DNA from: Euglena gracilis | Lineage: Eukaryota | Length of the DNA: 64,000 bases | Assembly (NCBI GenBank): GCA_039621445.1 | Contig: CP154954.1 | Span: 21,588,954 to 21,652,953, forward strand | Direction of reading: 5' to 3' | Notes under the pieces: generated by a model | Told to the model about the DNA's origin: nothing | Database searches by the model: none | What the model saw: the letters and a program-made list of their open reading frames with translations, nothing else | Shown: positions 535 to 58,450 of the stretch, one piece after another | Numbering within the stretch: position 1 is the stretch's first letter | Layout: each line of letters opens with the position of its first letter | Made by a program: the position numbers and the translations under genes

Positions 535-3500
535 GGCGCCTCGGACCCATGAGACCCAAGGCTCCCAGCCCCCTCGACCCTCTGATTCAAGGGAGCCTTG
601 CACCCATCGACGAGGCGGCTGATGGTGGAGCGGCGGTTGCCTTCTGCCGGACCCACTTCTACCACCTCATCCTGATGGACATCCACCTGCCCAGGGCAGC
701 CCCCCCCCCCCGGTGGTGCTGGAACACCTGGACCCCCTGTCCCCCCCACAGGCAAAGCCGCCAAGGTTCGCTTCACGTCGTGTGCCATGGCATTGGTTAA
801 GGTGTGCCCGACTGGGTGTTTGGAGTGATGGATTGGTCCTTGGCTGCAGACCCTCTCCCCCTGGGGATAGGGTCGGGTTATTGGTCCATCTGGCGCCTTT
901 GACGCCAGAAGGTTTTGGCAAATTTGACCAAAGTCCGTTACTTTTGAGCCATTTTATCCGTTGATTTTGATCCATTTTAGTCCCAGTGGCCAGAGTGACC
1001 GACGAGGGTCGGGCCGGAAGTGAGTCCCCCCTCCCTGGGGGGACTTCACAAGCAATGGTACGGCTGTGCCCCCCCCCCCCCAACGTCCCGACCCAACGGC
1101 CCTGCCAACGCCGGGGCTCAACGGCTTCGAGGCCACCGTCCACATCCGCACGCTGCAGCGGGAGCGCGGCGACGGCCTCGTGAGCCTCATCGTGGGGCTG
1201 ACTGGCAGCCAGGCCCCACCGTCGCCCCCGCCGAGGGTTCGACTGGGAGAGGGCGGGGGAATGGCCTCGCACCTGGGGGGGGGGGGGGGGGGGCTACTAA
1301 TGGTGCTGCCTGAACTGAGAACCGAGAATCAGAAACAGTTCCAGACTTCTGTCAATGAGAGGAATACTCCCACCTCCGCGCTGGCTGACCTCTCCGAATA
1401 CGATCTCCCACCCCCTCGCGGATGGCTGGTTGGCCGGCACCGAAGGAATCAGGCGCGAATTGCCCAATTTTTTTCTTTCCAATTTCTCTGTTTGGGGTTT
1501 CGGGGTTTCCACTTACGGCACCCTACCCGTTTGGGTTGGGAATGGGTCTGTTTTAGACAAAACAGCAAAATGCCGATTTTGTAAATTTATGGCGCTTTTA
1601 GGGGGGGGGGCTGGAAACCCCCCCCAGAATGCCCTGGAAAGTTGAAACACACAAAACCGGCAGAGCACACCTGGCCTCTGGAGAAGAAGGGTCCTGCGGG
1701 AGACACCCACGAGAGCGTGCCGAGTGTGGGGCACAGTAGCGGGATGAACGAGGTGCTGTGGAAGCCCGCCACCCCGGCGTCCATGCGCCAGCTCTGCGTC
1801 AAGTATGACATCCCGCGGAGGCGGGCCCCGGCTGCCGGGAATCTGTTGCCTCGGCAACCGTTGCTGGGGTGGGGGAGAACCAGGACTGAACAACGAATCT
1901 TTTGAATCCCTTGAACCCCGAGGGCGGGTTGCCCCCCCCCCCCGCCAAATCTGGTGGGGAGTCCGACCACCCCCTCCCTCCACCACCCCTGAACTTTTTT
2001 TCCAGGGGCGATAATTTCCCGCACTTTCCGCACCGAAGGAGTTTTTCCTTGCAACTTGCAACGTGCCATATGTTGTGTGCGGGGGGACCCACCCACCACT
2101 CCTTCCCATACAGCTCTGGGGACAGGCATTTTTTTAAAAAAATAGCCAAACCCCACCCTACCCCCAGGGGGGGTGGGGTTTTCCAGCCAGCACCTCCCAG
2201 CGGGGCTGGTACCCCCCCCCCAGAGTCGGGAAATTCCCCGCCTGGGAAGATCTAAACTGATAAACAGCACCAATCGGAAATCGCAACTGCCAGTTCGTCG
2301 ACATCATCTGCCAGTTCGTCGACATCATTTCTCGCCTGCTCTTTGGCGCGCCGGCGGGTCCTGAGGTGGGGATGGGAAGCCCCCTCGCCCCGGGGCTGGC
2401 GCCAACGCCGGCGGCCGCCTCGCCGGGCTGCGGGACAGCCCCGCCGCAGGTTTCAAGCCGCGGGCGCTGCTCAAGAACGGCCCGCGGGACATGAAGAAGC
2501 GTGGCCATGCCACCATCACGGCGTACGAGAAGTTCCTCCGCAAGAAGGGGGAGGAGTTCGCCGAGGCGTCCCGCGCTGGCTGCAGCCGGGTCCATTTTGC
2601 TCGTGCATGTGTGCGTGTGCGTGCTCATGAGTTGCGTTTGTTTGCACGTTTATATGACTTGCTTAAATTGAAACACACATCTTTTAGGATTTCTTCGAGC
2701 ACTTCAGGGGTCATCAGGTCTTGCACCACCTCGGAATATCATTTGTGAAACACCTCTGGTGGAAGGAATATAAATGAACTTTATGTGCCGAGAATGGGTC
2801 ATTTAGGTACGTGTGCCTGTGCGTGCATGTGTGCGATTTGCACGCACTTGTGTGCAGGGCTGTGCGGAAATCCCCGCAACCCTATGGGTGGTTGGTGGGA
2901 GGTCGACACCTCCCCCCATCGTGGTGGTAGGGGGGTGTCTGACCCCACCAGGCGTTCCCGTATTTCTGGGTGGCGCCGATTTTTAGGTCGAAATTTTCCT
3001 TTGGCGCCTTTTACCGTTGCGCCCTTTGCGCCTAAGGAATTTTTTTTGAGCGGGCGCCATGGTTGGTGGGGGGGGTCGACCCCCCCACCTCCCATGTAGA
3101 GGGTCCGACCCACCAGGCCTTCCTGTACATTCCTGTGCAGTCCTGCTTGTGTGTGCGCGCATGTATGCCTGTATGTGTCCCGCATGTTTGCACATGGGGG
3201 CAAGCAACCTAGGTTTTCCCAAAGGGTGCCTATGTGGACGGCCGGGGTCAGCCGCCAATGCAGCGGGTCTGAGGTGGATGTGAAAGGGGCGGAATGGGCG
3301 GAGCGGGATGCTGACCAGGCTTCTTTTAAGGAAGGCTGAACCCGAGGGGTTCTGGATGGCGGGGTGCTACTATATAAATGCATATATACATATATATATA
3401 TATATACATATACATATACATATATATATATATATATGTATATAAATCTACATATGCATATGTATGTATATATACACATATAAATGCATGTATATGCATA

Positions 3501-6500
3501 TGAATGTATATATACATACATACGTGTATATATGTATATATGTGTGTATGTATATGTGTGTGTATATATATATGCACATATCACACCCCTTAAAAGAGGC
3601 CTGATGTGGACCAACGCTCTGTGGCCACCTCCTCCCACCAGGGCTTTCCCGGATGTGATATTGCACAGATGCCACCGCTTTTCCAAGAAAAAAAGTGGAA
3701 GGCGTCGATCTGGTGTCGTCTTTGTCGAGCCAGCCCCCTTGTTCCTCACCGACATGGGATTCCAGACTGGTGGTGGGCTGCTGGGAACACCTCTCCCAGG
3801 CCCATTGGCAGGGGGGCATGCCAAGGCCGCCAGGCAGAATTTTGGGTAGGGGTTCGCAACTGTAGGTTTCTTGATGGTTTTTGCGGTGGCCTCTTTGAGG
3901 GTGGGTGTCGGGATATGTACCCCACGTCTGTCCGTGTTTGTTGCTGCACATGTGTATTGTGTGTGTGTGCGTGTGTGTTTGCGTGCGTGTGCGCGCGCGC
4001 TTGTGTGTGCATGTGTGTATGTGCGTGCACGCGTTCGTGCATGCGTTTTTGGTATGCGTGTTAGTGTGTGGCTGTCACGTTCATTCCTTCTTTGAAGAAT
4101 TTCGGTTCGTTGGCCAGCGGGGCCCTCCACCGGTCCTCACTGATGGTGGGCACGGCGTACGAGGAGCACGACCTCGCGCCCCTCGCCGCGATGCAGTTCG
4201 TGGAGGCGATCCGGGCGCTCAATAAGCGGGCGGAGATGCAGCTGAGCGCCAAGTTCTATGCCTCCCGCCCAGGGTTTTTTGAAGCCTCTTCAAGATTTTT
4301 TTTTTGAAACTGACCGCGTCTTTGACCCCCCCCCTCCGTGTCAACGGCACCTTTCCAGAACACTACCTGACGTATTTTTTTGTTGAATTACAGCGGCGTT
4401 GACGCACTATGTCGTTGACACCCCCCCATGTCAACGACACCTTCCCTGAACACTGTCGCGCCTTGGACAGGGGGAAGGTAATTCCATGTAATCTCTTGTG
4501 AATTTGGCGTTGTTTGCTGTATGTTGTTTGAGAATTTGCGTGGGAGGGGATCTCGGCGGCTTTTTCAAGGAAACCCTTCAAGGGATAGGGCAGAACCAGC
4601 GTTGGAACGCGTTCACCGCGAGAGAGCAATTTTTTTTTAACCAAGAGTGATGAGAACATTTCATTTTTAGCAAACTTCCCCAAAAGTCAAAGAATGAACA
4701 CACTTTTCCACATTAAAAAAAGGCATCTGTCTCATTCAGGGTTTTTTTTTTATGTTGTGGACCCCGGGGGGGGGGGGGGGTGGGTCCAGCCGAGCCCCCC
4801 TTCTGCCCACGGGGGCGGAGGGGTCGGACCCCCCCCTCCGGCCGGGGTGGTACTCTAAAGAGATAAGAGCTCAGCGACCAGGGTATGAATTAGAGCTGAG
4901 CTCTTTGGGAACCCCTCTAACCGCCTCATTTTCGGCTCAAAAACTCCTTTTCCAGGTCCGTGAGGCCAAAGAACATGGTTTTGGGCAAAAAAATTGTTTT
5001 CAATTTTTCGACTTTTTTTTGACCCAGAACTGACCCAAAATGGCCCAAAACGGGGGGGGGGCAATGATGATCATTTTGAAAAAGGTGCTATTTTTGTCAT
5101 TTTCGCGATTTTTGGCCATTTTCGGGGGAAAGTGGGTGGGTCTCCCGGGACCCCCCCCCCGGCTCCCCCCAGGGGGTGGGTGGGTGGGGAGGGGGACCCT
5201 CCCGGTCTTAAAAAACCCATGGTCCGGTTGGAGGGGTTTCCCATTTTCACCACCGAAAGTGGGTCCCCAAGGCCATCTCACCCCCCACCCCCCCTCGGCG
5301 TCAAAGCCAGGCCCACGCTGAGCCACGGCCCCTGCCTCCTCCACGAGCGGGTCACGGCGGTGGCCATGGCCGTCATCCGCCGCCAGATGCCGGCCCAGGG
5401 CGGCAACCGGGCCGGGGGCCGGCCCCCACCCCAGCACTGGGTCCCTCCTCCCTGGTGCCCCCCCCTTCGGTTTGAAAGGGTGTGAGAGGCAGACACGGGG
5501 TTTCTCCCGGTCAAGAGCGGAGCCGGGCACACGTGAGGAACGCGTCAACCAACGAAACTGGCGACGCGCGCAAACGAAACATCCTCCGCGCCGTTTAAGC
5601 ATCTACTGTGTCCGCGCGCCACCCCATTGCTCCGCAACCCTCTTTTTGAAGTCATCCTTCCAGAGACGCCTTTTTTGCCCTGCAGTATTTCAATGTTTCT
5701 TTTTTTCTCAGAAATCCCTCTCGGTCAAACATTTTTTGAAAAACCAGAAATTCATTTTTATGATGTTTTGGTTGATGGGGGATGATCCGAGGGCGCCAGA
5801 AATCACTTCCCCTCAAGAATTTGATCTGCTTTTGCAAAACATGGCTATTTTTCTGGCCATTTTTCCTGCAGGATTTCATTGAATGTGACGGGAGGGGAAG
5901 TCTTTTTTTTTTTGCTCAAGGACCGCCCTGCTCCCTGTTTTGGGCCCGTCTTTTCTGGTGCTAGAAGTCAGTTCCAGCAGGGAGGTTTACATCGTGGGGG
6001 GCTCCTCAATAAATTTACATTCAATTGCGTTGTGTGCCATTTTTTCCCCTGCATTTTCGTCAGTTTTGCATTTTCTTGAATTGCATGTTTTGAGATGCTT
6101 TGTTGAACCCCCCCAGAATTTTTAACACTCACCCCTCTTGTTACCCACCCCGTTTCATGCTCCCATAGATATAGATCTTGGCATATTTGTATTTAGAGCA
6201 ACCACAAAAAAAATGTTTTTTTGAGCCACGGCACGGCGTCTGTGGGACATTTTTTTGTGTGCGTAGTCACAGTGCACGCTTTCAAACGTTGCCGCGGTGG
6301 CGCACAAGGCAAATTCTGGCGCAGCGCACACAGGCCCCATTCCCATCCTTTGCAATTTTGCATACCTCCCCATGCAAGACACAGTGCATTATTTACTCAC
6401 ACCCCGTGCCAACCGCATTTTTATGGGACACTGCCTGGCATTTTCCGCTGAAGCGCTGTTGGATTGACACACCATCTCGTTGACATCCCCTTGTCAACGA

Positions 6501-9500
6501 TAAATCTTTGCAAGATAGCCTCACCTTGGACTAAAGGGGGAGGCAAAATATTTGTTACGTGTGACAAAGTAATAAAGCACTAAAACAAATCAAGAAAATA
6601 AATAATAATGAGGATGATAATAAATAAAAATATGTGCCAAATTTTTTCAGAAAAAATTAAGACGGAAAATGTGGGCCGCGACTGCCACGGCATTTATCTT
6701 TTTCTTGCGCCGTGCCAGTATGATCCCCACGCCATGTGCAGGTGGGGGCCGGGCCCTGCCCCCGATCCTCTTCGACGAGCGGATGCTGCAGACACACATG
6801 GAGGCGGACCTGCTGCAGGTGAAGCACACCCTGCGGCAGGTGCTGGTCCGCGCCTCCGGCCTCCATGCCACGGAGGGTGCCCTCGCCCCCGCCCAGGACC
6901 CCTGCCAACCCCCCACCCCAACCTGCGGCAGTGATGGGCGTTTGCGCATGTGTGTCTATGTGTGTCTGTGTGTGGTTTGTTTGCGCGCACGTGCGTGCAT
7001 GTGATTTGTGTGCGCTTCCTAGGCGAGCATTACCCCCTAAAACTGGTGTGTGGGAGCTGGGGCCCACCACCAGGGGAGGGCCAGCCAGCCACCACAGCAG
7101 GGGAGAGCCAGCATATTGTTTTTTTCCTTCAGCCAGCAGCTCCCAGCGGGGTGCACCCCCCCCCCCTTTCAGGTCGAGCGCTGGATTATTTTTTTTTAGC
7201 CATAATCTTGGGGTGAACAACCAAAAAATCCTCGGAAAGGCCCTTGTTTGGCCGCTTAGCTCCTTTTTTCCATAATTTTTTTGGCACTGTCCTACGAATC
7301 CAGCCAGGTCCAACCCGCTCCACCCAGCGCTTTTTTCCAGCCAGTGGGCTGGACCCCCCCCCCCCCTAAGGGGCCCTGAAGAAATTCCGTGTGTGTGGTG
7401 GCAGAAAGCTCCGCTGGAAGAGTTCATGCGAAACCAAGTTCTCTGTGGCTGCCGATCCCTTCCTGAAATGGGGGCATGTGGGCACTGGCGCGCATGCCAG
7501 TAACCCTGCATCCTTTCAAGGCAGGTTAAGAGCAATGCCTTGATGACAATCCAGCGACACCCCGGAAATTGCGGACACACACGGAGGGGGAACGCGGTGG
7601 AGGTTCCAGCCAGTCCCCCCCCCCCCCAATTTCCTTCAGCCCTGGCAGCCTGCCGTCGTCTCCGGGATCCGACTGCCGTGCGCCGGCCGGTGCCACATCT
7701 ACGGCCGGAGCAGCCGCGGCAGCGAGCCCAACGTGTACCAGTTCTACACCGTGGTGCCCTACGCGAACGCCCAGCACTGGGTTTGCTGGGTTGGGGGGGG
7801 CCTCCGCCCAGCCAGTGCCCTCTGCGGTGCGCTGTGGCCACCAACGCGTCTGTTGGTCGCATCGCACAGGTGTCCCCCCCCGGCCTAGTGCTGTCTTTAC
7901 CCATATGGTTCCGAAACCATGCCCCCAACAAGACACTGCCCCAGTGCTGCCATTGTGCTGGTGCGTGGGGTGCCCCTCGAGCTGGAGGCGGATGGCCAGG
8001 GAGGGTCGTCTGCACAGTCTCCCCACCCCAGCCAGAAGCCCAATGGGTTGTGCTCCTCCCCCAGGGAAAGGGAGGGGCTGTCCATGGACTATCATTTCGG
8101 TGGTTTTTGCGGTGGGCCCTTGACGATGGGGGGGGGCAAGCTTCGACACTTGAAATTGCCCAGCACCTCTATGTCCCATTGTTCTCCCGAAACCCCAGAT
8201 TTCAAGGTCAGGCGGTGAAGCTGCCACAGGTCTTCTGAGGCGGATCCAAACACCCAGGTTTCGAATCACCGCATCATATGCCCTGGGCATCATACTTATC
8301 GGCTCCCGACCCACACGATCGGTGCGCCGTCCTTTCCCGATCCTCCCTGGGGCTCCCTCCCCGGCCGCCGATGACGCCCGCACCGCCAAAGTTCACATGG
8401 CGGCCGGCTGCGATGACCCGCAGAGAGGCAGGGCCAAGTGGTGCCCCCCCCCCCCCCAACAGGCGCGCGATGCGCGGGCCATGTTTGTGCGAAAGCAAGC
8501 TTTTGGGTCAGATCGCAGTCAGTTCCCTGGGCTTGCCCTCTGTCAGGGAAGATTTTCAGAAAGGTTGGGGATGTTGACAGGTTGACGATGGGCTGGCCAC
8601 AGGTCACTTGGTTGAACCCCCCCCCCAGGTGTGCGTGGACAGCAGAGAGGAGCCCCCCCCCCCTCCTGGACCGCCAGTGGGACACCAAAAGGACAATTTT
8701 TCTTTCCGGTGCTTTACGGCTGAAATTTTGGGCATTTTTGGCAGAGTTTTGCCCAAAAAGGGCAGAATGGCACTTTTGGTCGATTTTGGAGGACAACATT
8801 TTTTGGCCCGGGGCTGTGTTACAGCCTGAAAAATGTTCACCTGGTGTAGGAGCATTGCATCAGCACGCACCACTGTAGAGGAAGGAGGTCCCCTCCCCCC
8901 CCTCGCTGGACTGGAGGGACTGACCTTCCCCCACTTGCCCTTACCCCCCCCCCCCCTATGTCCAACGACCCCCCCCCCCCAGTCTCTTTGGAGGTTTGGC
9001 CAAACTTCCATTTTTGCCACCTTTTGGACAAAAATTTGCCAGAATTGCCCAAAATTTTCGGTGCAAAGCGCCTGATGGAAAGATTTGCCTTTTGGGGGGA
9101 GGGGGTCAATGGTAAACCCCCACCTAAAAGGAACCCATTTCTTATAGGTGGGTTTCCAAAAAATGGCCTGAGGGGTTTCTTATAGGTGGGGGTTTCTTAT
9201 AGGTGGGTTTCAATGTCCGAAAAATTTTTGAGCCGACAAAAGGCCAAAGGTGGCCAAAAACAGTGAGAAATTTCCTTTTGGCGCCTTTGGCGCCAAAGAA
9301 AAATGGGGGTTTCTTATAGGTAGTTGGGTTCAAAGCTCCCCAGGGGTTTCTTATGGGTGGGGGTTTCTTATAGGTGGGCGTCGGTCCAAAAATCCCCAAA
9401 GGGTTTCTTATAGGTGGGAGTTTCTTATAGAGGGGGGTTTCTTAAAGGTGGGGGGTTTACCTGCCAACTTGCTTTTTTGACTCCTTGTCCAACGACCCCC

Positions 9501-12500
9501 CCCCCCCAGTTGGAGGACAGAGGTTACCGGTCGTTGGAGCCCCGCCAAAGGTGTCAAGAGAGAGGAGGCTGTGAATGTGTACTGCATGTTTGGTGCCATT
9601 GGAATGGTTGCAAACTCCAGGACCAGGGCTCTCTGTGTGGGGTCGCATCATTCCTCTGCTGTTTCAAAACACGCCCATTTGCCTCAAAATGCCCCACTGC
9701 CACCTTCCTCGCAAAATCCCCCATTTTCGCCTGTCCACAGCTGTCCAAGGCCAAAACTGGGGGATGACCCCCGGGGATCATCCCTGGGGGGAGGATGACC
9801 CCCCGGCGCTGGGTCCCAGATGAATGCTTTTTCCTCCTTGGTATTTTTAGGGGTATTTTTAGCCAAAAGAGCCCACCAACTTTACGGTCCAATTTGTCAC
9901 CCCACTTTTGTCTCCTCTGAAGGTGCCACCCCTCAGAATCACACCCGCCCACGTTGACTGAGAGGCTTTGCTTGTTGGCCATCCGCCATGGTCCATAAAC
10001 CATTTCAAATTTCTGGACTCATCAGATCCAGCCACGGTTGTGTTTTTTCCCTCTCTGGAGCAACTGAGAGGCTTACCTTTGTCCCTTTTGGGTGAAAATG
10101 CGACCAACGTGTCCCCCGACAGCCGCGCAGCCCCTTCCCTTGACACGGAGGAGACCGAAGCAAGGTTGGCTCAGCTCGGTCCGGGCGGGAAAAGGTTGGG
10201 AACAACTCCCGTGCGAATTGGCGGAACTCCGGAACGGCCAAACGGCCGGGCTTTTGCAGCAAGGTTTCAGGATCAGACAAGCAGTGCCCCCCCCCAAACC
10301 AAACTGAGGGAGGGTCCAACCACCACCATTGTTGTCTTTCTCTCATCCTCGGTGGGGAAACGCCCGGGGGGGCTCCCTGTCCTCTCCTCCCACCTCCACC
10401 ACCTTCCCCCCCCCCGACCACCACCAGCCCCTGCCCCCGGCCCACTCCCTGCCCAGCCTGAGAGGGGAGGAGAAAGCCACCCTGGCAGGGCGCTGTCCGT
10501 CTTTGACCGGGTAGCGGGGAGTGCCCTTTGGCCCAGCCCCACCTTGATGGGTCGGGACACACCGGCGCCTCCGCGCTATGCCCTATGCACTATGCGGGCC
10601 TGGTGGGCGGGTGTCCGGTGATGGGCAGTCCAAACGCTCAACTTTCCCTCCCCACGTTTGGGTGTGTGGGCAAGGTTCTAAGGCTGCAGAAGTTGATCCC
10701 GCAATGTCCATTTTCCCTCGCCACTTTGAATTTTTGTCCCGTTGTTTTAGCGAAGTGCGCACCCCCCCCCATTGGGGTTTGGGTGATAAGGGCAGGCAGG
10801 GGGGGGGCATTTTCACCCCATGGCTTGAGGCATTCCCCCAGATTTGGTTTCAGGAAGCCTGCTCTGCTGGGGGGGGAACACCCAAAAACATACCCCCCAA
10901 TAATATCCCCCCAAATACCATACAGTCCGAACAAAAATGACGGGACACAAAAATGATAGGAAAACACCCAATTTTTCCAATCATTTTCCCCCGCTTTTTT
11001 TCCCCTGTCATTTTTTTCTCCTCATGCCCTTTTCATTCCCTTTTGGGAGAGCCGCGTTCAGGCGTAATCAAATTTCACTCACAAAAGATGGGGTTTGACA
11101 TATGGTCAATTTTGGGTTTGGTTTTTTTTAAATGAAAAATCACCAAACACACATACACAGACAGAAGACCATTTTGGCTACTTTGGGGTGTTTTGAGTTG
11201 CCCTTTTTGCTGAATATCTTTCCTCATAGGTGGGAAAATTGCCACCAAATTTCTGTGAACGCTGAACTTTCTCATCATTATCCGAAACCGAAATTATCCC
11301 ATCATATTTTCCCCGTCAATTTCTTTCCTGTTGTTTTTTCCCTGTTATTTTTGTTTCCTGTCATTTTTGTCAAGACCGTATGATAGTATATCCCCGTTAC
11401 CTGGGACCAGGCTTGTGCTTAGTCGGGTGCCTACCCCACGGGGGGGGGGGGTGGGGGCTAGGGGCAGGCACCCCATAGCACCCGATCCGACCCCCCCCCG
11501 GGGGGGGGGGTAGGGTTTCGGGGGGTGCCTGCCCCTAGCAGGCACCCCCCTCCGACCCCAGCGCCGAAGGCGCCGGGGGCCCGGAAACGGCCATTTTCAA
11601 TGAAAATTTTCTGGGTCTGGCCCGGACCCCTATCCCCCCCGGGGGGGGGGGTGCCTGCTAGGGGCAGGCACCCTATAGCACCCACCCCCCCTCCCCCCCC
11701 GGTTGGTAAGCACAAGCATGCCTGGGACTTCGGCTGCCCAATGAATACACCCCCCTCCTGGATAAAAGTGAGAAATCAAGCAAGGCGGAAAATATCGATT
11801 TCCCTCCGAAACAGCGTACCCCCCCCAAAAAACCTGGCGGGGTGCCAGGTTATTGGAACCAACTTTTGGCCCTGCCCCAGGTTATTTGGGCCCTTTTTTT
11901 CAGCGTCGTAAAGGAGCTTTGCCTTGCCAAGTTACTGAAACTATTTTTTTTTTGCCTCTCCCCCGCCAAGTTAATCGGCCACTGCCAGGAGCAATAACCC
12001 CTCCAGTTTTTTTGGGGGGGTATTTGACAAGGGCCCCACCCATCCCAGACTTCTCTGTCTTTTTTCCGAGGAATGCCACGCAAGGTTGCTCCCCCCTGAC
12101 CCACTGCTTGAGGCAAAAAGGGCAACCGGCCTTATGCGCCTGTCAGCCGGGAAGAGCGTACAAAACAACGCACCGATGATGGATGATGACCCGGGCGGAC
12201 TTTTGGAAATTCAAACTCAAAAAACCCTTAAATTGCACTTTTTTTTGTTACAAAATTGCTGAGTTATGCACATTTTTACACGTGCACCAACCAATTTCTA
12301 CAGTGCCCTCCCAGCCCCGGACTCTGCCCCGCACAACTGCCGGGAGGCACCGCTGGCCAGCAGCATGAAGGGCCCCACCGTGCTAAAGGCCCGGGCCAGG
12401 TGGTGGCATCCCAAGGTTGGTTGGAAGGTCAGAACACTCCCTCCCCACTCCGCCAGATAGTTTTTTTTTCCATTTCTTGCAATAGGCCGAGAAAATGATG

Positions 12501-12509
12501 TATGTGTAA

Positions 12510-12574
<65 letters not shown>

Positions 12575-12591
12575 TGCATACAACGTGCATA

Positions 12592-12659
<68 letters not shown>

Positions 12660-12889
12660 AAGTATGTCTGTAAGTAAGTAAGTAAGTAAGTAAGTGTGTG
12701 TGTATGTATGTATGTGTGTATGTATGTATGTATGTATGTATGTATGTATGTATGTATGTATGTATGTATGTATGTATGTATGTATGTATGTATGTATGTA
12801 TGTATGTATGTATGTATGTATGTATGCATGTATGCATGTATGTATGTATGTATGTATGTATGTATGTATGTATGTATGTATGTATGTAG

Positions 12890-12920
<31 letters not shown>

Positions 12921-13373
12921 TGTATGTATGTATGTATGTATGTATGTATGTATGTATGTATGTATGTATGTATGTATGTATGTATGTATGTATGTATGTA
13001 TGTATGTATGTATGTATGTATGTATGTATGTGTATATATGTATGTATGTATGCATAATGAGCATGCATGCATGCATGCATGCATGCATGCATGCATGCAT
13101 GCATGTATGTATGTATGTATGTATGTATGTATGTATGTATGTATGTATGTATGTATGTATGTATGTATGTATGTATGTATGTATGTATGTATGTATGTAT
13201 GTATGTATGTATGTATGTATGTATGTATGTATGTATGTATGTATGTATGTATGTATGTATGTATGTATGTATGCATGTATGCATGCATGCATGCATGCAT
13301 GCATGCATGCATGCATGCATGCATGTATGTATGTATGTATGTATGTATGTATGTATGTATGTATGTATGTATG

Positions 13374-13407
<34 letters not shown>

Positions 13408-16400
13408 TGTATGTGTATGTATGTATGTATGTATGTATGTATGTATGTATGTATGTATGTATGTATGTATGTATGTATGTATGCATGTATGCATGCATGC
13501 ATGCATGCATGCATGCATGCATGCATGCATGTATGTATGTATGTATGTATGTATGTATGTATGTATGTATGTATGTATGTATGTATGTATGTATGTATGT
13601 ATGTATGTATGTATGTATGTATGTATGTATGTATGTATGTATGTATGTGTATGTATGTATGTATGTATGTATGTATGTATGTATGTATGTATGTATGTAT
13701 GTATGTATGTATGTATGTATGTATGTATGTATGTATGTATGTATGTATGTATGTATGCATGTGTTGTTTGTTTGTATGTATGTGTTGTTTGTATGTATGT
13801 ACGTATGGGGGATTCTCACGAGGGGGGGCTCGACCCCTACCCGCATCCTGGTGAGGAGGGATGGGTAAGAATGCTGGAGGTTTATGGAAATTGGATGGCC
13901 AGGCGGGGTGTGTGGGGGCCGCTGGCTGACGGGGACGCCCACGCGGACGAAGGAGAAGCCGCCGTGGGCCGGGGCGGGCCGCAGCGCGGAGGAGGGGCTG
14001 GCGGGGGACGGCGTGCTGGACGACGCGGTGGTGGGGCTCTTCGACGGGCACGGGGCGTCTGGGGGGGCCCCGCCAAAGCCCCCCCCTCTGGAGGCTGCAG
14101 CCATAGCGGGACTGCAGAACGAGGCACGCATCCCTGGTCTCTTGTTTTGCGCTCCATGCGGCCCGGTGTGTGCAGCCCGGGCCCCGAGGCCTGTTTGGCG
14201 GTTTCTCTCCATTCATGCGCACAGTCCGCTCCAACCGACTGTGAAATTACTTGAATGGGGGTTTTCCTCGGTTAGGCATTCCCCGGCCCCTCCACCTGGG
14301 ACGGAAGTCGCCGCCTACGCTCGGGACACGATGCTCCACAACCTCGTGACCAGGGTTTGATATAAGGAGGGCGTACATGGTTTAGGTGGGGGTTGTCCCC
14401 CCCCCTCCTGGCCCGCAGGGGGGGTCCGGACCCCCCCCCCCCCACCTGCCAGGGGGGTCCGGACCGACCCTCGGGGGAGGGGTTCCCGGGACCCCCCCCA
14501 AAAGGGTCAATTTTTTCCTCTGGCACTTCGCTCCGAATTTTTTTTTTGCATTTTTGGCACATTTTTGCCCGAAAAAGTGCCCAAAATGGCACTTTTGGTC
14601 GTTTTGGGGGGTCGAAAATTTTCGGTCACCCAGACCGCGCCACTGTTTAGGTGGGGGGTGTGTCCGCTCCCCCCCCCCCCCTCCTGGCCCGCAGGGGTCC
14701 GGACCCCCCCCCCACCTGTCCTTACATCGAACCCTGCTCGTGACCTCCGGCTGCTACCCACCCATGGCCACTGCCAACACCCTTTCGTTGGGGAGTCCTT
14801 TTTGCCATTGTTTATTTAGAACGATAATCTCAAAGCACACGCTGCGTTGTGTTGTTGTTAACTCAGTTGACAGAAACACGGTGTGTATTTTTTGTGGCTT
14901 CATCAGCGCCCCGCCAGTCCTGGAAAGCGAGAAATGGCCTCATCCAGCCCTGGGTGTTTTCTGACTCCTTTCTGACTGGGAGGTAGTGGTCCTCCCTGGT
15001 GAAGGACAGTTTGTCAGGAGCCCCTGCCATGCCATGCCAGGCCGTGCCTCCGATGGACCTGCAGGCCGCCCTGATCGACGCCTTCCGCGTGACGGACAAG
15101 CGGATCCGGGAGTGGGGCCAGGCTGTTGTTCAGGCAGTGTTCCCGTGTGTGATGGGAAAGTCCATATGCAGCTCATCCTGTGCCTTTGCACCTACAAAGC
15201 CATGCATGTCTCTGTCCTCGTATTTTTGGTCTTCTCTTCTCTTCTCTTCTGTTCTCTTCTGCTTCTTTTTTCTGATCTCGTTATTTTTAAAAGAATTCTC
15301 TTGGTCTTGAATCATTTTCTTCTGTCTATGTCTTTTGATCTGCTGGTTTGTTGATTTGTGCTTGATTTTTTTTGTTTCTTGTTTGTGTCTTGTGTTTTGT
15401 TGTCATCGACATATTGGCATGTGCGACATGTTTTTCTTGGTGTGTGTGAAAACAAACACTTCAGCGTGTGAGGGTGTATTTCTATTTTATTTGTATTTCT
15501 ATTTCTATTTTACGCACCCCACCACACCCCAATGCCCCCGGCTACACTCAATGATCCCCCCCCTGCTGTAGGGCCAACCCCAACGCTGCCAACGGTGCCT
15601 CGTTGCACTGGGCCCCTCCCCGACCGGCCGGTGCTGAACGGCGGCCTCGCCGGGTCTCGCTCAACAACGAGCCGGCCCGGGTCGGCACCACCGCCCTGGT
15701 GGCCGTGCTGCGCCGGGGCACGCTGTGGGTCGCCAACGCCGGGGACTCCCGGGCGCTGCTGAGGGGGCCGGGCCCGGCGACAGCGTGGGCGGGGGGGAGG
15801 GGGCTGCGGCCCGCACCTGTGCGGTGCTGTGGGGGGGGGGGGTGAGGTTTGGCACACTTGTGCACCACGCCAGGGTTCGGCATACGGGGGTTTCACGGCT
15901 TCATTTGGGAGGCTTCCTACCCTCCTGGACCGGGCACCTACTGCATTTTTTTTCTCATCACAGCTTCCTCCATCACAGCCCCCCAGCCTTGATCTAGCTC
16001 CATCCACCAAAATGTCGAGAAGGCAAAAATGTGTTAGAAATTTTTGTTTTTTTCATCGACCCAGCCCAGCACAGCCCCCTCCCCTCCAGCCCTGGACCCC
16101 CTCCGGGGGGTCTGGAACCCCGGGGGGGGGGGTCCGGATTCACTCCGGGGGGCCAACCTGGTCCCCCAATAAGGTCAAGTTTTTTTTTTCTTTCCGGTGC
16201 TCTGCGCCGAAAATTTTTGGTCATTTCGACAAAGGTTTGCCAAAAAATTCCAAGATGTCATTTCGGATCTGTTTGGAAACGTTTTTGTCCCGGAGCTTAG
16301 CCCCTGTTTAGATGGGGGTTCCCCTCCTTGAGCAGGGGTCCAACCTCCACCTGCTCAGAAGTTTGTTTCAGCCAAGTTGGTGAATAGGCAGGGTGTTTGG

Positions 16401-19400
16401 CCAGGCCTACTCCCAAGAAGCGCAGGTTGGTGAGTACAGGCACCGAGGCCAACCTCCCAAGTGGGTAGGGCATTCCGGAGGGGGGGGGGGCAGGGCAACC
16501 TGAATCCGGGGGTTCGGTTTGGTGTCAACTGTGTTCGGGACCTCGAAGACATGCTGCATTTGGGTGCCACACGTCCTTGATGCTCCAGCGGCCACCTGTT
16601 TGCGGCCGCTCCCATCCATAGCCAGCTCTACTAAGGTAATCAATTTCCGCTTTGGGAAACTGTGAACTTTTCAGCAAGCTTCTGGGGGAGGGGAAAATGC
16701 GTGGTGCTGTCTGTGGGGTTGACGGAGAGGGGTCACTCGGATCGTTTCCGGGATGCAGCTCAGGTGCAGGGTTCTGGGGGGGAGTTAGGCAGGCCTTGGG
16801 GCTTGCCAGGCCGGGCCCCGGGCCGGTGCACCAGGACTTCACGACGACCCGCCTCGCGGACCTCCACACCCCGACCAACGAGGCGGAGCGGCACCTCGTC
16901 CAGAAGCGGGGCGGCACGGTGACGTTCCGCGAGGGGGCGTGGCGGGTCAACGGCGAGCTGCTGGTGACCCGCCTCCTCGGTGTGCCCCACTGCCATCCGG
17001 GGTTTGTGCCGCCCCCCCTCCCCATGCCCTCCCCTCCCAGATGACTGTCCTCCACAATGTACCCAAACTGTCTCCTGCCTCCATTCTCACCCACTCAGCT
17101 GTCTTCTACCCCTGGCATAATGTCTTGGTCTGATGCGAAAGGTTTTTGTCTAATCTCGGTGATGCAGTTTCCCAATTTAGAACCCCTTTTCCTGGGGGGG
17201 TGCTGCTGGGAGGTTGGTTCGCGAGAGGTTGGGCCACCGTCGGTCGCAGCCCAACCGGGGTCCAACCAATCTGCCAACGTCCGTGGTGGGGAGGATTGGC
17301 AATGGATGCATGAATGAACAAAAGTCGTTTGGAAAAAATTGGCGGAACAAAATCCTGACAAATCTTTTTCTACCATTTTGGCCTAGACTACCCAATTTTT
17401 CCACATGTTTTTCAGAAATTTTTGAAAATTACACCCTATTTTTCAAACATCACTTTCATGTCTTTCAATTGTCAATCATATCAAGAGATTTGCTCAGGTG
17501 GTTTGATTTTCAGTTGTTCGTAATTATCCTTCCTTGCTCAGCGATTTGAATCATGTTGTGAGGTTTCCAATGTGTGGTGTCACATGAAATACACTTTCCT
17601 GTGTAATTTTTTTGGTAGGGGGGGAAGTCTGCCAATTTTTTCCGCACGTTTGTTTTGCACGACATCTTTCCAATACATTTTCCCACAATTTTGGCCGAGA
17701 CCACCACTTGCTTTCGCCTGCAAATTTTTCCATCCAGTTTATTTCGTCAGCACCAACCGTGGTATGCCTTGGGGATCGCTGAGCAATGATACCCTGAGGC
17801 TTACCCTGGAGGGAAGGGGGGGGGGCAGGGTTTTTTTTTTTAGCCTTGGACCCCCTGGGGGGGGGAAGGGGGGTAGGGTGGGTGGGTCTGGCAGAGCCCC
17901 CGGGGTCCCCCCGGGGTCTCCCCCAGGGGATATGCTTTTCAGCGCCAAAGGCGCCTAAAATTTTTGAAAAAGGTGCTATTTTTAGCATTTTTCGCGATTT
18001 TGGCCATTTTCAGGGGAAAGTGAGTGGGTCCCCCGGGAACCCCCCCCCCGGGGGGGGGGCCCCAGGGGTGGGTGGGGGTGGACCCCCCTCCCCCTGGTCT
18101 TAAAAAAAAACCCCTGGGGGGTCCCAAGCACCCTGACATTTTCCTCGGGCAGTGTTCACACTTCAGGTTAAGTGCATTAACTAACTGCATTATAATTAAT
18201 TATAAGTAAAAATATTATGTATATTTTATAGTTTTTATAATATAAAAAGTATAATATATATTGCATATACAGTATTACATATAATATATAATATGCATAT
18301 TATATTACACAGTATATATATACGTATATTAATCATAATTACATTGTATCAGGCAACCATTGGGTTTTCGCCCTCCAAGTTCCTAGTCGCGGCCAACCTC
18401 CGCCCCTGGCGGGTGGTCACCTGCCATCCCCACGTCACCAGCCACAAAATCGACCCCTCCAGACCAGGGATGGAACGGAGTGCATGCCTCCTGAGCTGTA
18501 CCAGCCAAATGAGAGGGGGCATCCAAGTTTGATTCCAGATTTTTCCAAGACCTTTGAATGAAACAGAACTTTGTTGTTGGTATAACAGAACTTTGTTATT
18601 GATAAACGATGGATTTGTTATTGATGTAACAAACGCAGTTTGAATAATTTCAGACCTCTCTTTTTTTGGGAATAACTCTGCAACCCACACACGTGCAGTT
18701 TTGTTTTGCCTTGTCCAGTCGCTGCATACCAACCCCCCCCCCCCCCCGGGAAACTGTCATGCCCGAGAACCTGTCAAGGTCCTGGTACTGGCCAACCTGT
18801 CAGGTGACAGTTTCCCGGGGGGGGGGGGGTGGGGCACCCGCTGTGCCTGTGGGTTGGGCCAGCCCTGCGGCCGGGACTGCTGTGTGCTGCTGGCGGCGGG
18901 CCTCTGGAGTGTGATGACGGAGGCGGACGTGGCGGAGTTCCTGGCGGCCGCCTTCCAGGAGGTGCAGGCGTCGCTGCGGGACCTGCAGCAGCCGAGCCTG
19001 ACCGTGGAGGCTGTCCTGCGGCGCCGCCAGTCCGTCCTGTACCCGGCGTCCCGCCCACTGCTCGGCCTTTTTTCGGCGTCACGTGGCCACATGTGGGCAC
19101 GTGACGTGTAGCCACATGGCCTTATCCCATGGCTACGTGGCTCGTACCTACGCCATGTTATTGGCGTGGCTACGCGCCATGCTAGCCACTCTCTGCGTAG
19201 GCTTGGGCTGGACCAGCCTCACAACCGGCCAGGGTGCCAGTGGGCCACGGGAGTTGCCAGGCCAGGATGCCAACGTTTTTGATTTGTGACAGCAAAAGCG
19301 GTCAACGTCTTGGTCACAGAGAGCCCCGGCGTGGGCTTCCGCGAGCCCCACAGCCCGGCGGTGCCCCGGACTGATGTGCGACGCCCGCACCCCGCCGCTC

Positions 19401-22400
19401 GACCTCGGCCAGCGGCCCCGCACCTGCCCCCCGGGGGCCACCCTGCCCCGAGGGCTGCAGGCGGTTGAGCCCTGATGGATGGGCGGCCCCCGGGCCAGGG
19501 GGGGAACTATTTTCGCCGGTGTGTGCAGCATGGCCTCCCGGACGGCCACAGCATTTAGGGTGGGCTCCTCACCAAGCGGTTTCCTTTTCTTTCCGGCCGC
19601 CATCAGCGACCTCTCCCCCCCCCCGACCACACCATATTGAAGGAAATGGCGATGGGGGATGTGGCTGGGATGGCGTTCCGTCCTCACACAAAGTCATTGA
19701 GATTGGCGCAGCTTGTCAAAACTACCCCCATGTCAAGTCCGCTGCCATGTCGTGGTGTGATTTGAAAATGTGCATTTGTCGAAAATCACATATTCTGCAT
19801 GATGGTTCTTCGGTCTGAATTATTCAAAAGCAGAAAGTCCCAGCCGGAATGAGCAGCACGATGTGGAATGTCCCAAATCGCTGCTGATTGAAGCATGATA
19901 TTATGAAAGTTGGCTCTCAAAATATGGCAGTGAGCATTCTTTGTGACATCACAAGCATGCCATAATTGTTCATTTGCATCAAGACGCACAAAACAGCATG
20001 TACCAGGTTTTTTTTTGAAGGCAGGAAATGGGATAAAAAGAAATAAAGTTTTCGATCTCCAGGTGGTTGGGTTTTGGGGTGGTTCGTATCCCCCTCTGAC
20101 TGTTTCTTTTTTTATATTAATTCTCAAAGATAACCGTTTGCAGTCAAACGGTACAGGCAATTAGGTCTACTGATGCCAACTATCAAGGGCAATTGATTGG
20201 TGGGGGGCGGGCATGTAGGTGAAGCCAATGTTGCCCTGTGAGCTGGACCTGGATGTTCTGTCCCCTGGAAGCCGCTCTGAACTCTGTTTGACAGCCCCCC
20301 CCCCCTGTGTGCACTGTGGCTGTTTGCCCCCCCCCCCCGGGGGACAGGGGCTCTGCCGTTGTTCGGCCGCCGTCCCTTCGTCCCCCTCCCCCCGCCCCCC
20401 CCCCCCGGCCGCCCTCCGGCCCCAACGCTGCCGCCGCAGTGCCCGCCCATGCCGGACCCCCCGGCGTGCCCGGCGCCCCCCGACGCCCCCATGCAGCGCG
20501 TGCGGTCCGACTCCCTCCACGGCCGGCCAGCGGGGCTCTTCCCCAAGGGTCCCCCTCCTGCCCTTCGGCTCTGCTGCCCTGGCCCTCGAGGCCAAATTAG
20601 TTCCTCACTCTCCTAGTCAGGGGGGGGGGCGTTCCAACTTGCACCTCCCCAGTTAGCACCTCCCTGCTGGGCTGCGGACCTCCCCCTGGAGGGGGGGGTC
20701 AGTAGAAATACAGTTGGGCCTGGCTTCGCTGGCTTCGCCTGGGCTGGACTGATAAAGTCTCGTCGCAACTTTGAAAGTTGAAAATGGGCTAAAATGGCCA
20801 AAGTGGCATTTTTTGAAGGTTTTTGAGGTTTTAAAATTTTGGTCCACAAATCCTAACCCAGCTGGAGTCATGCTTTTACTCCCGTTTTTGGGTTCTGGGC
20901 AGGTGACCCCAACACCCGTCTCCCCCCCCCCTTTTCTAGCCATGGGACCCTGCAGGGGTTATTTTTCGCAGATTTCGCAATTTTCTGCAAATTCCGCCAT
21001 TTTCAGCAAATTTTTACAATTTTTCCAAAATTTAATTTTTCTTTTCCTCCTTTGATTCCCTCCTTTCATCCGGCCATTCCTTGAATGTTTCATGTTCCAA
21101 CCCAGGTGCCTTTTTTGTCACTTGGTTGCAAGTTTTCCAAAGTTTGCAAATTTTGGCATTTAGTTTTTAGCATTTTTAAGGTTTTTTTTTAAATTTCTGC
21201 CCAGAAATAATTTCGACTTGACAAATTCCACATAGACATATTCCACATTCTGACCTGAACTTTTCGTCAACTTCTTTTTTTTCCTTTTTGGGGTTTTTCA
21301 GCCAACGAATGCTGTGACGTGGTAAAAAATCATGTGTGTTTTCTGGGGGGGGGTGAGAAAGCAAAGCTTACACTAATGTTGCAAAATGAAAAAAGCCAGA
21401 GGAGGAGGCGAAAGCCCCTCCAGCAGAAATGTGGAACACTCCCAATATCAATTTTTCTTGTTTTCCCCCCAAATTTCCACAAATTTTCCACAATTTCAAA
21501 AGAAATTTTGGACTGCCCCCCTTCTTGAATTGTTGCGACAGCCTTTGGAACAACTGCCTTCTAAAACCGGACCCCCTGGGGGGATCCAGTCACCACTCCC
21601 CCCCCCCCCGGCAGCAACTCAGCAGAGTTCCCACAAAATCTTTCGCATCACCATTCATAAGTGTTGATTTTTATTTTCCTGATCCCACACATTTTGCCAA
21701 TGTGTTATCCCAAGCAGCCATGTGTGTATGGCAGTACGCTCATGGGGTTTCTGATTGCCGTTCAGCCCCCAGGGCGGGCAGGGGTTGGTGAGCTGGGGGG
21801 GGGGGCAGAATGGTGTTCATAATTGGGGGGGCACTGGCACTGAGACAACTTCCCTCAATGGAGGCCAGAGGGGGGGGGCTGAATCACCAACAGGGGTTTT
21901 TTTTTGTCTTAGATCCCCAGGGGGGGGGGTGGTTGGGTCCGGCTGAGCCCCCTCCCCCGGGGGAGGTTCCCCCAGGGGGATACTTTTTGGCGCCGTGCTA
22001 TTTTTAGCATTTTTCGCGATTTTTTGGCCATTTTTGGGAAAAGAGACCCCAGGACCCCACCAGGACCCCCCCAGCGGGTTGGTGGGGGGGGACCCTCCGG
22101 TCTTAAAAAAAAACCTTGTACACCAACTCTGCAAGGTGATGTGAAAGGAGAGCAGTCAGAAGAGGACTGGTGCGATATGCCAGAGCCTCAACGGAAAAAA
22201 AATCCACATTGCACATTTGACCCCAGGGATAGATGGGAAGCCCTTTGGTTTTGAGGTAGGTGGCAGGGGGGGGTCCGGAGCCCCCCCCCTGGGGACTAAG
22301 GTGGTGGGTGGATCCGACCCCCCCCCCCAGATGTTGGGAGGGTCCGGACCCCCCCCTCGGCAGGTTGCAAAAGTAGCAAAGTTTTTTCTTCTGGCGCTAC

Positions 22401-23014
22401 TCACCGAAAAAGGAGCAACAAATGCCCCTTTCCCTCATTTTTGAGCAGTTGCACATTTTTTTTGACATTTTGGTGTTTTCCACACAAAAAGTGTTCAAAA
22501 AATTCAAAAATGTGTATTTTTTGGATTTATTTTCCACGAAGGATCAGGGGTTTTTGACTTCTTTTGGCCTTGTATCCGGACTTTGCGACCGGTTCGCAAA
22601 ACCAAATTTTCCCAGCCTCCTTCAGTTTCGAGGGAGGATGGGGGGGTCCGGACCCTCCCCCCCCCCTCAAGGCTTCCCATTCCTGTTTGACCCCCCCTCC
22701 CCCTGCAAAAGGGTCTGCTTTTCACAACCCCTGTGCATTGTTTGTCATTTGGTTCGCAAGCAAGTGCTTTCAAAAGCCCCCCCACGGGGGGGTTCAACCG
22801 GCTGGCTGGGCCACAGGCCAGAGAGAAGGTACCAGCGGGAGCCTGGTGGATGTCACACGGGTCTCACAGGACCTTCCAGACCCGTGTGAGGTCACACAGG
22901 TCTGGAAGGTCTGGAAGGTCCCGTGTGACCCGTGTGACTTTCCAGACACCCAAAGGTTTTGACCCCACCCCCAGACCTTCCCGTGCAGGCCCCTACGTCC
23001 GACCAGGGCCGACC

Positions 23015-23088
<74 letters not shown>

Positions 23089-35426: not shown

Positions 35427-58450
<23,024 letters not shown>

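What the first reader, a model, noticed from the sequence alone, without database searches (positions are those of the whole stretch)
554..18872. Nonconventional introns look like hAT-type insertions: the 3+5 nt splice offset equals one 8-bp TSD
Seen: at least 10 introns of the REC-PP2C gene start 3 nt before a CAG-like stem arm and end 5 nt after the complementary CTG-like arm. Known: euglenid nonconventional introns have this +4..+6 / -8..-6 pairing, and hAT transposons have CAG-starting TIRs and 8-bp TSDs. Inference: 3+5=8, so splicing removes the element plus exactly one TSD copy and restores the pre-insertion mRNA. The unexplained spacing rule would then be the transposase's staggered cut. 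The window shows an age series: TSD 8/8 with 18-bp TIR (14348), 6/8 with 16-bp TIR (3313), 4/8 with 6-bp stem (689), and minimal 52-55 nt hairpins (554, 3663). A transposon origin for these introns has been proposed in general terms, so novelty of the TSD-geometry link needs a literature check.
Basis: partly seen in the sequence, partly recalled or inferred. Interest (0 to 1): 0.92.

Follow-up and report, generated by a model that had tools for sequence, protein, structure and literature searches.

The report
Euglena odd introns, two are transposons
All the introns of this Euglena gene are of the known non-standard hairpin type, and two of them are plainly small transposons whose 8-base insertion scar is removed together with the element, which fits but does not prove the idea that this whole intron class began that way.

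Summary
The window holds residues 375-1158 of a Euglena gracilis kinase-REC-PP2C gene (EukProt EG_transcript_705). All 25 introns (689-25958) are nonconventional. None of 92 protein-compatible junctions is GT/GC-AG. Each intron has one junction that puts a terminal stem 3 nt inside the 5' end and 5 nt inside the 3' end.

Introns 5 (3313-3608) and 16 (14348-14741) are real MITE-like elements. They have 15/16 and 16/18 TIRs starting CAG, and 6/8 and 8/8 flanking repeats. The mRNA lacks the element plus exactly one repeat copy. The window also holds at least five non-exonic CAG...CTG elements with 8-bp duplications. Exact flank repeats peak at n=8 (5 against 0.6 in decoys). Three of these share termini with intron 5.

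The other 23 introns show no intron-specific duplication (0.413 against 0.394 in permuted pairs). 4/8 is chance level, and stem strength does not track flank identity, so the "age series" is unsupported. The mini-introns at 554 and 3663 do not fit the transcript. The hAT assignment is untested.

In print already: MITE origin, TIR/TSD-like ends, an 8-nt repeat at a new intron, and the 3/5-nt spacer rule. I did not find the link 3+5 = one 8-bp TSD in print.

The parts
606..25986 (+). 26 exons (residues 375-1158 plus stop) of a kinase-REC-PP2C gene. Exons: 606-688, 1110-1206, 1702-1814, 2427-2572, 3257-3312, 3609-3636, 4132-4266, 5340-5409, 6764-6890, 7658-7768, 7955-7993, 8355-8425, 10439-10478, 12320-12393, 13934-14056, 14300-14347, 14742-14759, 15052-15115, 15654-15760, 16825-16994, 18408-18461, 18873-19052, 19369-19444, 20424-20524, 25529-25724, 25959-25986.
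   Evidence: P0001 = EukProt EG_transcript_705. Exact peptide matches. The spliced CDS is identical at 782 of 784 residues. Pfam finds Pkinase, Response_reg and PP2C.
689..1109 (+). Nonconventional intron 1: gcc-CAGGGC...GCCCTG-ccaac. 6-bp stem, flank identity 4/8.
1207..3256 (+). Nonconventional introns 2-4: 1207-1701, 1815-2426, 2573-3256. Flank identities 4, 3 and 2 of 8.
3313..3608 (+). Nonconventional intron 5. It equals the MITE-like element 3316-3603 plus 3+5 flank nt. TIR CAGGCTTCTTTTAAGG/CAGGCCTCTTTTAAGG (15/16). Flank repeats ATGCTGAC/ATGTGGAC (6/8). The interior is an AT/CA microsatellite.
   Evidence: The protein residues 'DAD' show that the mRNA keeps positions 1-5 of the left repeat copy.
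3637..14299 (+). Nonconventional introns 6-15: 3637-4131, 4267-5339, 5410-6763, 6891-7657, 7769-7954, 7994-8354, 8426-10438, 10479-12319, 12394-13933, 14057-14299. Flank identities range from 2 to 5 of 8.
14348..14741 (+). Nonconventional intron 16. It equals the MITE-like element 14351-14736 plus 3+5 flank nt. TIR CAGGGTTTGATATAAGGA/CAGGGTTCGATGTAAGGA (16/18). Flank repeat CTCGTGAC 8/8. The junction can slide over 9 nt.
   Evidence: The mRNA reads ...NLVT|SGCYP, that is, one repeat copy is kept.
14760..25958 (+). Nonconventional introns 17-25: 14760-15051, 15116-15653, 15761-16824, 16995-18407, 18462-18872, 19053-19368, 19445-20423, 20525-25528, 25725-25958.
24629..24913 (+). Free MITE nested in intron 24. 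TIR CAGGCTTCTTTTTAAG..., 8-bp duplication GGCAGAAT 8/8. Same family as 30959 and 31228.
26052..26512 (.). TIR element downstream of the stop codon. Termini CATACATCTCTCTAAGG, 8-bp duplication CCACACAT 8/8.
26608..26822 (.). MITE with TIR CAGGGCAGAACGGGAA and 8-bp duplication ACCGTCCC 8/8. The related copy at 43496-44085 has GGGCAGGG/GGGCGAGG 6/8.
30959..31554 (.). Head-to-tail dimer of the CAGGCTTCTTTTTAAG MITE (30959-31221 and 31228-31554) with a 6-nt spacer. Outer 8-bp duplication CCTGATGA 8/8.
42225..43475 (.). TIR element with termini CAGACCACTCCTT. Flanks are GGGGGGGG on both sides, which is low complexity and weak as a duplication.
554..605 (+). Hairpin with exact nonconventional geometry (3 nt, 10-bp stem CAAGGCTCCC/GGGAGCCTTG, 5 nt) abutting exon 1. 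It is the 3' end of an intron whose 5' exon lies outside the window. It is not shown to be an intron of its own.

Best explanation
The region is part of a Euglena gracilis kinase-REC-PP2C gene. Its 25 introns in the window are all of the known nonconventional type. They are removed by the still unidentified machinery that reads a terminal stem (usually CAG...CTG) and cuts 3 nt before it and 5 nt after it.

The same window carries several families of small non-autonomous DNA transposons. Their termini are CAG...CTG and they make 8-bp target-site duplications. An insertion of this kind into an exon already has what the published splicing code asks for: the stem, with the two duplication copies lying where its 3-nt and 5-nt spacers lie. 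It meets that code fully when position 6 of the 8-mer is a purine. Because 3+5 equals the duplication length, the cut removes the element plus exactly one copy and restores the original reading frame, in either orientation.

Shown here: introns 5 and 16 are such insertions. Inferred: the spacer sum and the duplication length match because this intron class is fed by these transposons. Not shown: that the other 23 introns arose this way, and that the transposons belong to hAT.
For: - Gene model and junctions: (782 of 784 residues identical).
- All 25 introns are nonconventional: 0 of 92 junction options are GT/GC-AG.
- The 3/5 frame is sharply preferred: 15 of 25 against 3 or fewer in unrelated frames.
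- Published code N3-CDG...CH'G-N5|R: met by 14 of 25 introns; a purine starts the 3' exon in 23 of 25.
- Introns 5 and 16 have long TIRs plus 6/8 and 8/8 flank repeats, and the mRNA keeps one copy. 8/8 never occurs among 600 non-self pairs.
- Whole-window TIR scans: exact flank repeats peak at n=8. One scan gave 4 of 209 candidates at n=8, 1 at n=7 and 0 at n=9. Another gave 5 of 500 at n=8 against 0.6 in decoys, 1 against 1.0 at n=7, and 0 at n=9. All five start CAG and end CTG.
- Family link: intron 5's terminal 14-mer has 10 other hits at 2 or fewer mismatches, against 0.3 for shuffled controls. Copies at 24629 and 30959-31554 have perfect 8-bp duplications.
- Both exonic elements have G at duplication position 6.
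- Literature, passages and sections read. Knock-in tests show that the 3-nt spacer is strict, that a 5-nt or 6-nt 3' spacer works, and that synthetic 50-nt introns splice (PMC12501133 sections 8 and 10). A newly gained gapC intron in one E. agilis strain has eight-nucleotide direct repeats (PMC4770533).
Against: - 23 of 25 introns carry no intron-specific flank repeat: 0.413 against 0.394 for permuted pairs, z 0.7.
- Slidability of 20 of 25 equals the permuted expectation of 0.756.
- There is no correlation between stem strength and flank identity (rho 0.03).
- The whole-set excess at n=8 (0.45 against 0.393; 36 of 2000 permutations reach it) comes only from introns 5 and 16.
- Intron 5 shares only its ~16-nt termini with the free copies, not its interior.
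- 6/8 alone has P = 0.038 per intron, so about one is expected in 25.
- With a lax complexity filter the n=8 peak is lost in microsatellite noise: 11 against 8.8.
- Synthetic introns with arbitrary spacers splice. The 3/5 rule is therefore a property of the machinery and needs no duplication.
- No transposase was found in the ORFs scanned.
- Junctions rest on a protein, not on RNA reads.
Confidence: 0.7

Rival explanations
1. Coincidence or pre-adaptation. The 3-nt/5-nt cut rule is a structural property of the unknown splicing enzyme and owes nothing to transposons. CAG...CTG MITEs with 8-bp duplications merely happen to be tolerated substrates. Most nonconventional introns arose otherwise, for example by conversion of conventional introns or by re-insertion of excised intron circles.
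For: - 23 of 25 introns show no duplication trace.
- Synthetic introns with arbitrary spacers splice (PMC12501133 section 10).
- A 6-nt 3' spacer also works.
- Both junctions share a Y|R consensus that by itself explains 76% slidability.
- Milanowski 2014 also proposes conversion from conventional introns (PMC3935182, abstract and passages).
Against: - The intron stem consensus CAGG(G/C) equals the termini of the local MITE families.
- Two of 25 introns are such MITEs.
- An exact match of spacer sum and duplication length is needed for any such insertion to be harmless. That makes a causal link in one direction or the other likely.
Confidence: 0.3
2. The 8-nt direct repeats at introns 5 and 16 are scars of double-strand-break repair during intron gain, not target-site duplications of a transposon.
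For: This was proposed for the eight-nucleotide repeats of a new gapC intron (PMC4770533, abstract and passages).
Against: - The same kind of element, with long TIRs, sits at other non-exonic sites. Each site has a different perfect 8-bp repeat.
- Three copies have homologous interiors.
- This pattern is the signature of cut-and-paste insertion.
Confidence: 0.05
3. The elements are MITEs, but of a superfamily other than hAT that also makes 8-bp duplications, such as Merlin, P or others.
For: Merlin families with a conserved DDE motif and 8-bp TSDs are reported in E. gracilis (PMC8101967, passages). My searches found no report of hAT in Euglena.
Against: All Merlin families are said to start 5'-GG. 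The elements here start CA. CAG-type termini with 8-bp duplications are the classic hAT pattern; this is recalled, not tested here.
Confidence: 0.3

Closest known systems
Euglenid nonconventional introns and their splicing code (Milanowski 2014, PMC3935182; Nomura 2025, PMC12501133)
   Same: No GT-AG ends. The terminal stem starts at +4 and ends at -6. CAG/CTG is preferred, the junctions are Y|R, and a purine starts the 3' exon. All 25 introns here fit.
   Different: Nothing differs in kind. Here two introns can also be tied to TIR elements with 8-bp duplications, and one of them to free copies.
Introner elements of Micromonas, Aureococcus, dinoflagellates and others (as reviewed in PMC11282704)
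   Same: A non-autonomous DNA transposon lands in an exon, and splicing removes the element plus one duplication copy, so the mRNA is restored.
   Different: Introners use the spliceosome, and one splice site is taken from a 3-5 nt duplication. Here the borders are non-canonical, the signal is the TIR stem itself, the duplication is 8 bp, and the enzyme is unknown.
hAT-superfamily MITEs (features recalled, not from a call)
   Same: 8-bp target-site duplication and short TIRs beginning CAG.
   Different: No transposase is linked to these elements. Only some termini fit the recalled YARNG consensus: CAGGG fits, while CAGGC, CAGAC and CATAC do not fully.
Merlin transposons of E. gracilis (PMC8101967)
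   Same: DNA transposons documented in this species with 8-bp duplications.
   Different: Merlin TIRs start GG. The elements here start CA.

Membership tests
Euglenid nonconventional intron | No GT/GC-AG borders at any junction compatible with the mRNA | tested here: met
   0 of 92 protein-compatible junction options for the 25 introns
Euglenid nonconventional intron | Terminal stem beginning 3 nt inside the 5' end and ending 5 nt inside the 3' end | tested here: met
   One such option exists for each of the 25 introns. 15 of 25 have at least 4 contiguous WC pairs in that frame; unrelated frames hold 3 or fewer. I picked junctions by this stem, so the count is partly circular for slidable introns. 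Four of the 5 non-slidable introns show 4-5 pairs; intron 23 has only 1 contiguous pair (an interrupted stem).
Euglenid nonconventional intron | Published code N3-CDG...CH'G-N5|R | tested here: inconclusive
   Met by 14 of 25 introns. CAG and CTG both occur in 13 of 25. R at the exon start occurs in 23 of 25. The paper reports 61.2% for E. agilis (abstract).
Euglenid nonconventional intron | Excised as a full-length circular RNA, after the conventional introns | not testable with these tools
   No reads could be laid
hAT-superfamily non-autonomous element | 8-bp target-site duplication | tested here: met
   8/8 at 14351, 24629, 26052, 26608 and 30959-31554; 6/8 at 3316 and 43496. The peak is at n=8 only.
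hAT-superfamily non-autonomous element | Short TIRs with CAG-type (YARNG) ends (consensus recalled) | tested here: inconclusive
   Termini are CAGGG, CAGGC, CAGAC and CATAC. Only CAGGG fits the recalled consensus fully.
hAT-superfamily non-autonomous element | Autonomous partner encoding a hAT transposase (DDE plus hAT dimerisation domain) | not testable with these tools
   No genome is held. Nine window ORFs gave no transposase family. My searches found no paper on hAT in Euglena.
Merlin superfamily | TIRs start 5'-GG; 8-9-bp duplication | tested here: not met
   The duplication length fits, but the elements start CA
Introner elements | Multi-copy transposon family whose copies are introns, with splicing removing the element plus one duplication copy | tested here: inconclusive
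   Removal of the element plus one copy is shown for 2 introns. Only one gene could be examined, so copies acting as introns in many genes are not shown. The free copies are non-exonic.
Introner elements | Spliceosomal GT/GC-AG borders | tested here: not met

The most novel reading that the evidence does not exclude
The N3/N5 spacer rule of Euglena's noncanonical splicing code is the RNA-level image of an 8-bp target-site duplication. On this reading the whole nonconventional class (about 70% of Euglena introns) descends from CAG/CTG-ended, 8-bp-duplicating (hAT-like) MITEs. The excision machinery was then selected, or even derived from the transposition machinery, to remove the element plus exactly one duplication copy in either orientation. 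It would act as an RNA-level counterpart of precise transposon excision.
Probability: 0.35. Interest if true: 0.8.

Novelty: new member of a known kind. Interest (0 to 1): 0.58.

Why it matters
The origin and the removal mechanism of euglenid nonconventional introns have been open since the 1990s. A 2025 paper still calls the origin unclear (PMC12501133, Discussion passage).

A concrete case would turn a general hypothesis into countable predictions. The case here is an intron that belongs to a MITE family with free copies, together with a match between the experimentally fixed 3+5 spacers and the 8-bp duplication. The predictions are:
- an excess of flank identity in the 8-nt register only;
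- a decay of that excess with intron age;
- single-copy empty sites in strains lacking the insertion;
- frame restoration only when the duplication is 8 bp.

The case would also place Euglena beside introners and ciliate eliminated sequences as a third way to make transposon insertions harmless.

Tried and rejected
- Whole genome. None is held. Genome-wide flank statistics and a transposase search were therefore impossible.
- Other genes in the window. A codon-usage scan found no clear coding exons between 26 and 64 kb, so the intron sample stays at 25.
- Pfam on nine ORFs between 27.5 and 34.5 kb. The only hit was a sub-threshold DUF2608.
- Metagenome scan for the MITE terminus. It gave 2 loci, and neither resembles the element beyond the 19-mer.
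- Earlier findings of this scan. None was found.
- First TIR scans. The tool's inverted-repeat list was swamped by microsatellites. Two of my filters were too strict and dropped known elements.
- Supplements are closed. Two files may bear on the 8-nt question and were not seen: the sliding-distance data of PMC12501133 (SI Fig. S3) and the direct-repeat table of PMC4770533 (Additional file 1, Table S3).

Full report
**What is there**

An exon translation from the window (18872-19108) matches, at 100% identity, a 1158-aa protein named eukprot:EG_transcript_705 (P0001). Pfam finds a protein kinase domain, a response-regulator receiver domain and a PP2C domain in it. From that name and the intron type I take the organism to be Euglena gracilis; this is an inference.

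Exact peptide matches place residues 375-1158 on 26 plus-strand exons between 606 and 25986. I listed every donor/acceptor pair that reproduces the protein, which gave 92 options for 25 introns. With the junctions I chose, the spliced CDS translates to P0001 residues 375-1158. The only differences are Q413H and G1094S.

Its kinase part lies upstream of the window. A codon-usage scan trained on these exons finds no clear coding exons between 26 and 64 kb.

**The observation**

None of the 92 junction options has GT/GC...AG ends. For each intron, one option puts a stem exactly 3 nt inside the 5' end and 5 nt inside the 3' end.

In a 13 x 13 table of offsets, the (3,5) cell holds 15 of 25 introns with at least 4 contiguous Watson-Crick pairs. 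The cells on the same diagonal are the inner pairs of the same stems. All other cells hold 3 or fewer. I picked junctions by this stem, so the count is partly circular for slidable introns. However, sliding keeps the sum of the two offsets fixed, and no other sum shows a signal. Four of the five non-slidable introns also show 4-5 pairs; the fifth, intron 23, has an interrupted stem with only 1 contiguous pair.

Further counts:
- CAG at +4..+6 and CTG at -8..-6 both occur in 13 of 25 introns.
- The published code N3-CDG...CH'G-N5|R is met by 14 of 25.
- A purine starts the 3' exon in 23 of 25.

This is the known euglenid nonconventional intron. Its 3-nt and 5-nt (or 6-nt) spacers have been fixed by knock-in experiments, and synthetic 50-nt introns splice (PMC12501133, sections 5, 8 and 10 read).

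**The two clear cases**

- Intron 16 (14348-14741) is a 386-bp element (14351-14736). Its termini are CAGGGTTTGATATAAGGA and CAGGGTTCGATGTAAGGA (16 of 18). It is flanked by CTCGTGAC on both sides. The protein reads ...NLVT|SGCYP across it, so the mRNA lacks the element and one copy of the 8-mer.
- Intron 5 (3313-3608) is a 288-bp element (3316-3603). Its termini match at 15 of 16, and its flanks are ATGCTGAC/ATGTGGAC (6/8). The residues 'DAD' show that the mRNA keeps positions 1-5 of the left copy. This fits a cut after position 5 and excludes cuts further left.

8/8 never occurs among 600 non-self donor/acceptor pairs. 6/8 or more has P = 0.038. So 6/8 counts only together with the long TIR and the family link.

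**Free elements**

A whole-window scan for terminal inverted repeats gave 209 candidates. Exact flanking direct repeats were found as follows: 4 at n=8, 1 at n=7, 1 at n=6 and 0 at n=9.

An independent scan required at least 12 of 14 complementary bases with the first three perfect, plus a moderate complexity filter. It gave 500 candidates, with 5 exact repeats at n=8 against 0.6 in shifted-flank decoys, 1 against 1.0 at n=7, and 0 at n=9. All five start CAG and end CTG. With a laxer filter (959 candidates), microsatellites swamp the signal: 11 against 8.8. Two stricter filters lost known elements.

The elements are:
- 24629-24913, inside intron 24, duplication GGCAGAAT;
- 26052-26512, termini CATACATC..., duplication CCACACAT;
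- 26608-26822, duplication ACCGTCCC;
- 30959-31554, a head-to-tail dimer, duplication CCTGATGA;
- 43496-44085, 6/8;
- 42225-43475, flanks of eight G, weak evidence;
- older copies of a CAGGG(T)n family with 4-6 of 8.

Intron 5's terminal 14-mer has 10 other hits at 2 or fewer mismatches, against 0.3 for shuffled controls. The copies at 24629, 30959 and 31228 have homologous interiors. Intron 5 shares only its termini with them. Intron 16 shares ~80-110-nt internal modules with repeats at 8726 and 37218.

Both exonic elements have G at position 6 of the duplication, as the published code requires. On the plus strand, several free copies do not have a purine there.

**The other 23 introns**

Identity of the 8 nt before the 5' arm with the 8 nt after the 3' arm is 0.45 for all 25 introns, against 0.393 for permuted pairs (36 of 2000 permutations reach it). 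Without introns 5 and 16 it is 0.413 against 0.394 (z 0.7).

Further results:
- 20 of 25 introns are slidable, against a permuted expectation of 0.756 (P 0.37).
- The mean repeat length is 1.76 against 1.48 (P 0.15).
- The two junctions share a consensus in the 8-nt register: CTCCC|GCC and CCCCC|GAC, with Y|R at both. That consensus accounts for the baseline.
- Stem strength and flank identity are uncorrelated (rho 0.03).

So 4/8 at 689 is chance level, and there is no age series in this gene. With 184 positions the test would have seen a strong residual signal but not a faint one.

**The mini-introns**

3663-3717 lies inside intron 6, and its best fold does not use the 3/5 geometry.

554-605 folds exactly as 3 nt + 10-bp stem + 5 nt (-17.9 kcal/mol, z -2.7) and ends where exon 1 begins. 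However, the sequence before 554 does not encode ...VEGQLT, and no upstream exon is in the window. I leave this unexplained.

**How it most likely works**

Shown: CAG...CTG elements with 8-bp duplications exist here. Two sit in exons, and the mRNA lacks the element plus one copy.

Established by others: the machinery needs the stem, a 3-nt 5' spacer, a 5-nt (or 6-nt) 3' spacer and a purine. Excised introns are full-length circles (review passage, PMC11282704).

Inferred: such an insertion meets that published code as soon as it lands, provided position 6 of the target is a purine. Because the spacers sum to the duplication length, the frame is restored. Because both strands read CAG...CTG, orientation does not matter.

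Two things remain open. One is which came first, the rule or the transposons. The other is why the split is 3/5 rather than, say, 4/4.

**Comparison with what is known, and novelty**

These points are already in print:
- MITE origin was proposed in 2014 (PMC3935182, abstract and passages).
- TIRs at +4..+6 and -8..-6 with 'repetitions of TSD' at the junctions appear in a 2024 review (PMC11282704, Fig. 3D legend and passages).
- Eight-nucleotide direct repeats at a newly gained gapC intron were reported in 2016 and ascribed to break repair (PMC4770533).

The 2025 code paper set slidable introns aside when defining its motifs. It does not mention TSDs. The review contains no '8 bp', 'hAT' or 'superfamily'.

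Searches for Euglena with hAT, TSD, MITE or transposase found no paper that links the 3+5 spacers to an 8-bp duplication or names hAT. The library holds open-licence papers only.

Merlin elements with 8-bp duplications are reported in E. gracilis, but they start GG (PMC8101967). The elements here start CA.

**Verdict**

This is a known intron type. The transposon hypothesis is known too, and here it gains a concrete, well-documented pair of cases and a simple, testable rationale for the spacer rule. The general claim and the hAT label remain unproven.

Noticed in passing
window 554-605: A perfect 10-bp hairpin with exactly 3 unpaired nt before it and 5 after it, ending where exon 1 starts. The transcript's preceding exon is not in the window, so this looks like a complete mini nonconventional intron sitting at the 3' end of a longer one.
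   Followed up: partly
window 30959-31554: Two copies of the CAGGCTTCTTTTTAAG MITE lie head to tail, separated by 6 nt (CCTGAC). The pair as a whole is flanked by a perfect 8-bp duplication.
   Followed up: partly
window 12510-13807: A 1.2-kb (TGTA)n array, with (ACAG)n before it, lies inside intron 14. Other long simple repeats are C71 at 23016-23086, (ATAC)n at 29991-30186 and (CA)n at 52097-52343.
   Followed up: no
window 59657-60005 and 61319-61668: About 350-nt inverted repeats at 99% identity, with about 1.3 kb between them. The outer ends start with a G run, not CAG, and no flank repeat was seen.
   Followed up: partly
window 9130-9430: Repeated GGGTTTCTTATAGGTGG units inside intron 12.
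   Followed up: no
window 689-25958 (junction contexts): The 'free' spacers are not free in this gene. The first intron base is a purine in 24 of 25 introns. The base before the 5' arm is C in 21 of 25. The two bases after the 3' arm are C in 18 and 19 of 25. This is more constraint than the published N3/N5 code states.
   Followed up: partly
window 1141-1143 and 25555-25557: The genomic copy differs from the EukProt protein at two residues (Q413H, G1094S). It is therefore an allele, a strain variant or a near-identical paralogue.
   Followed up: no
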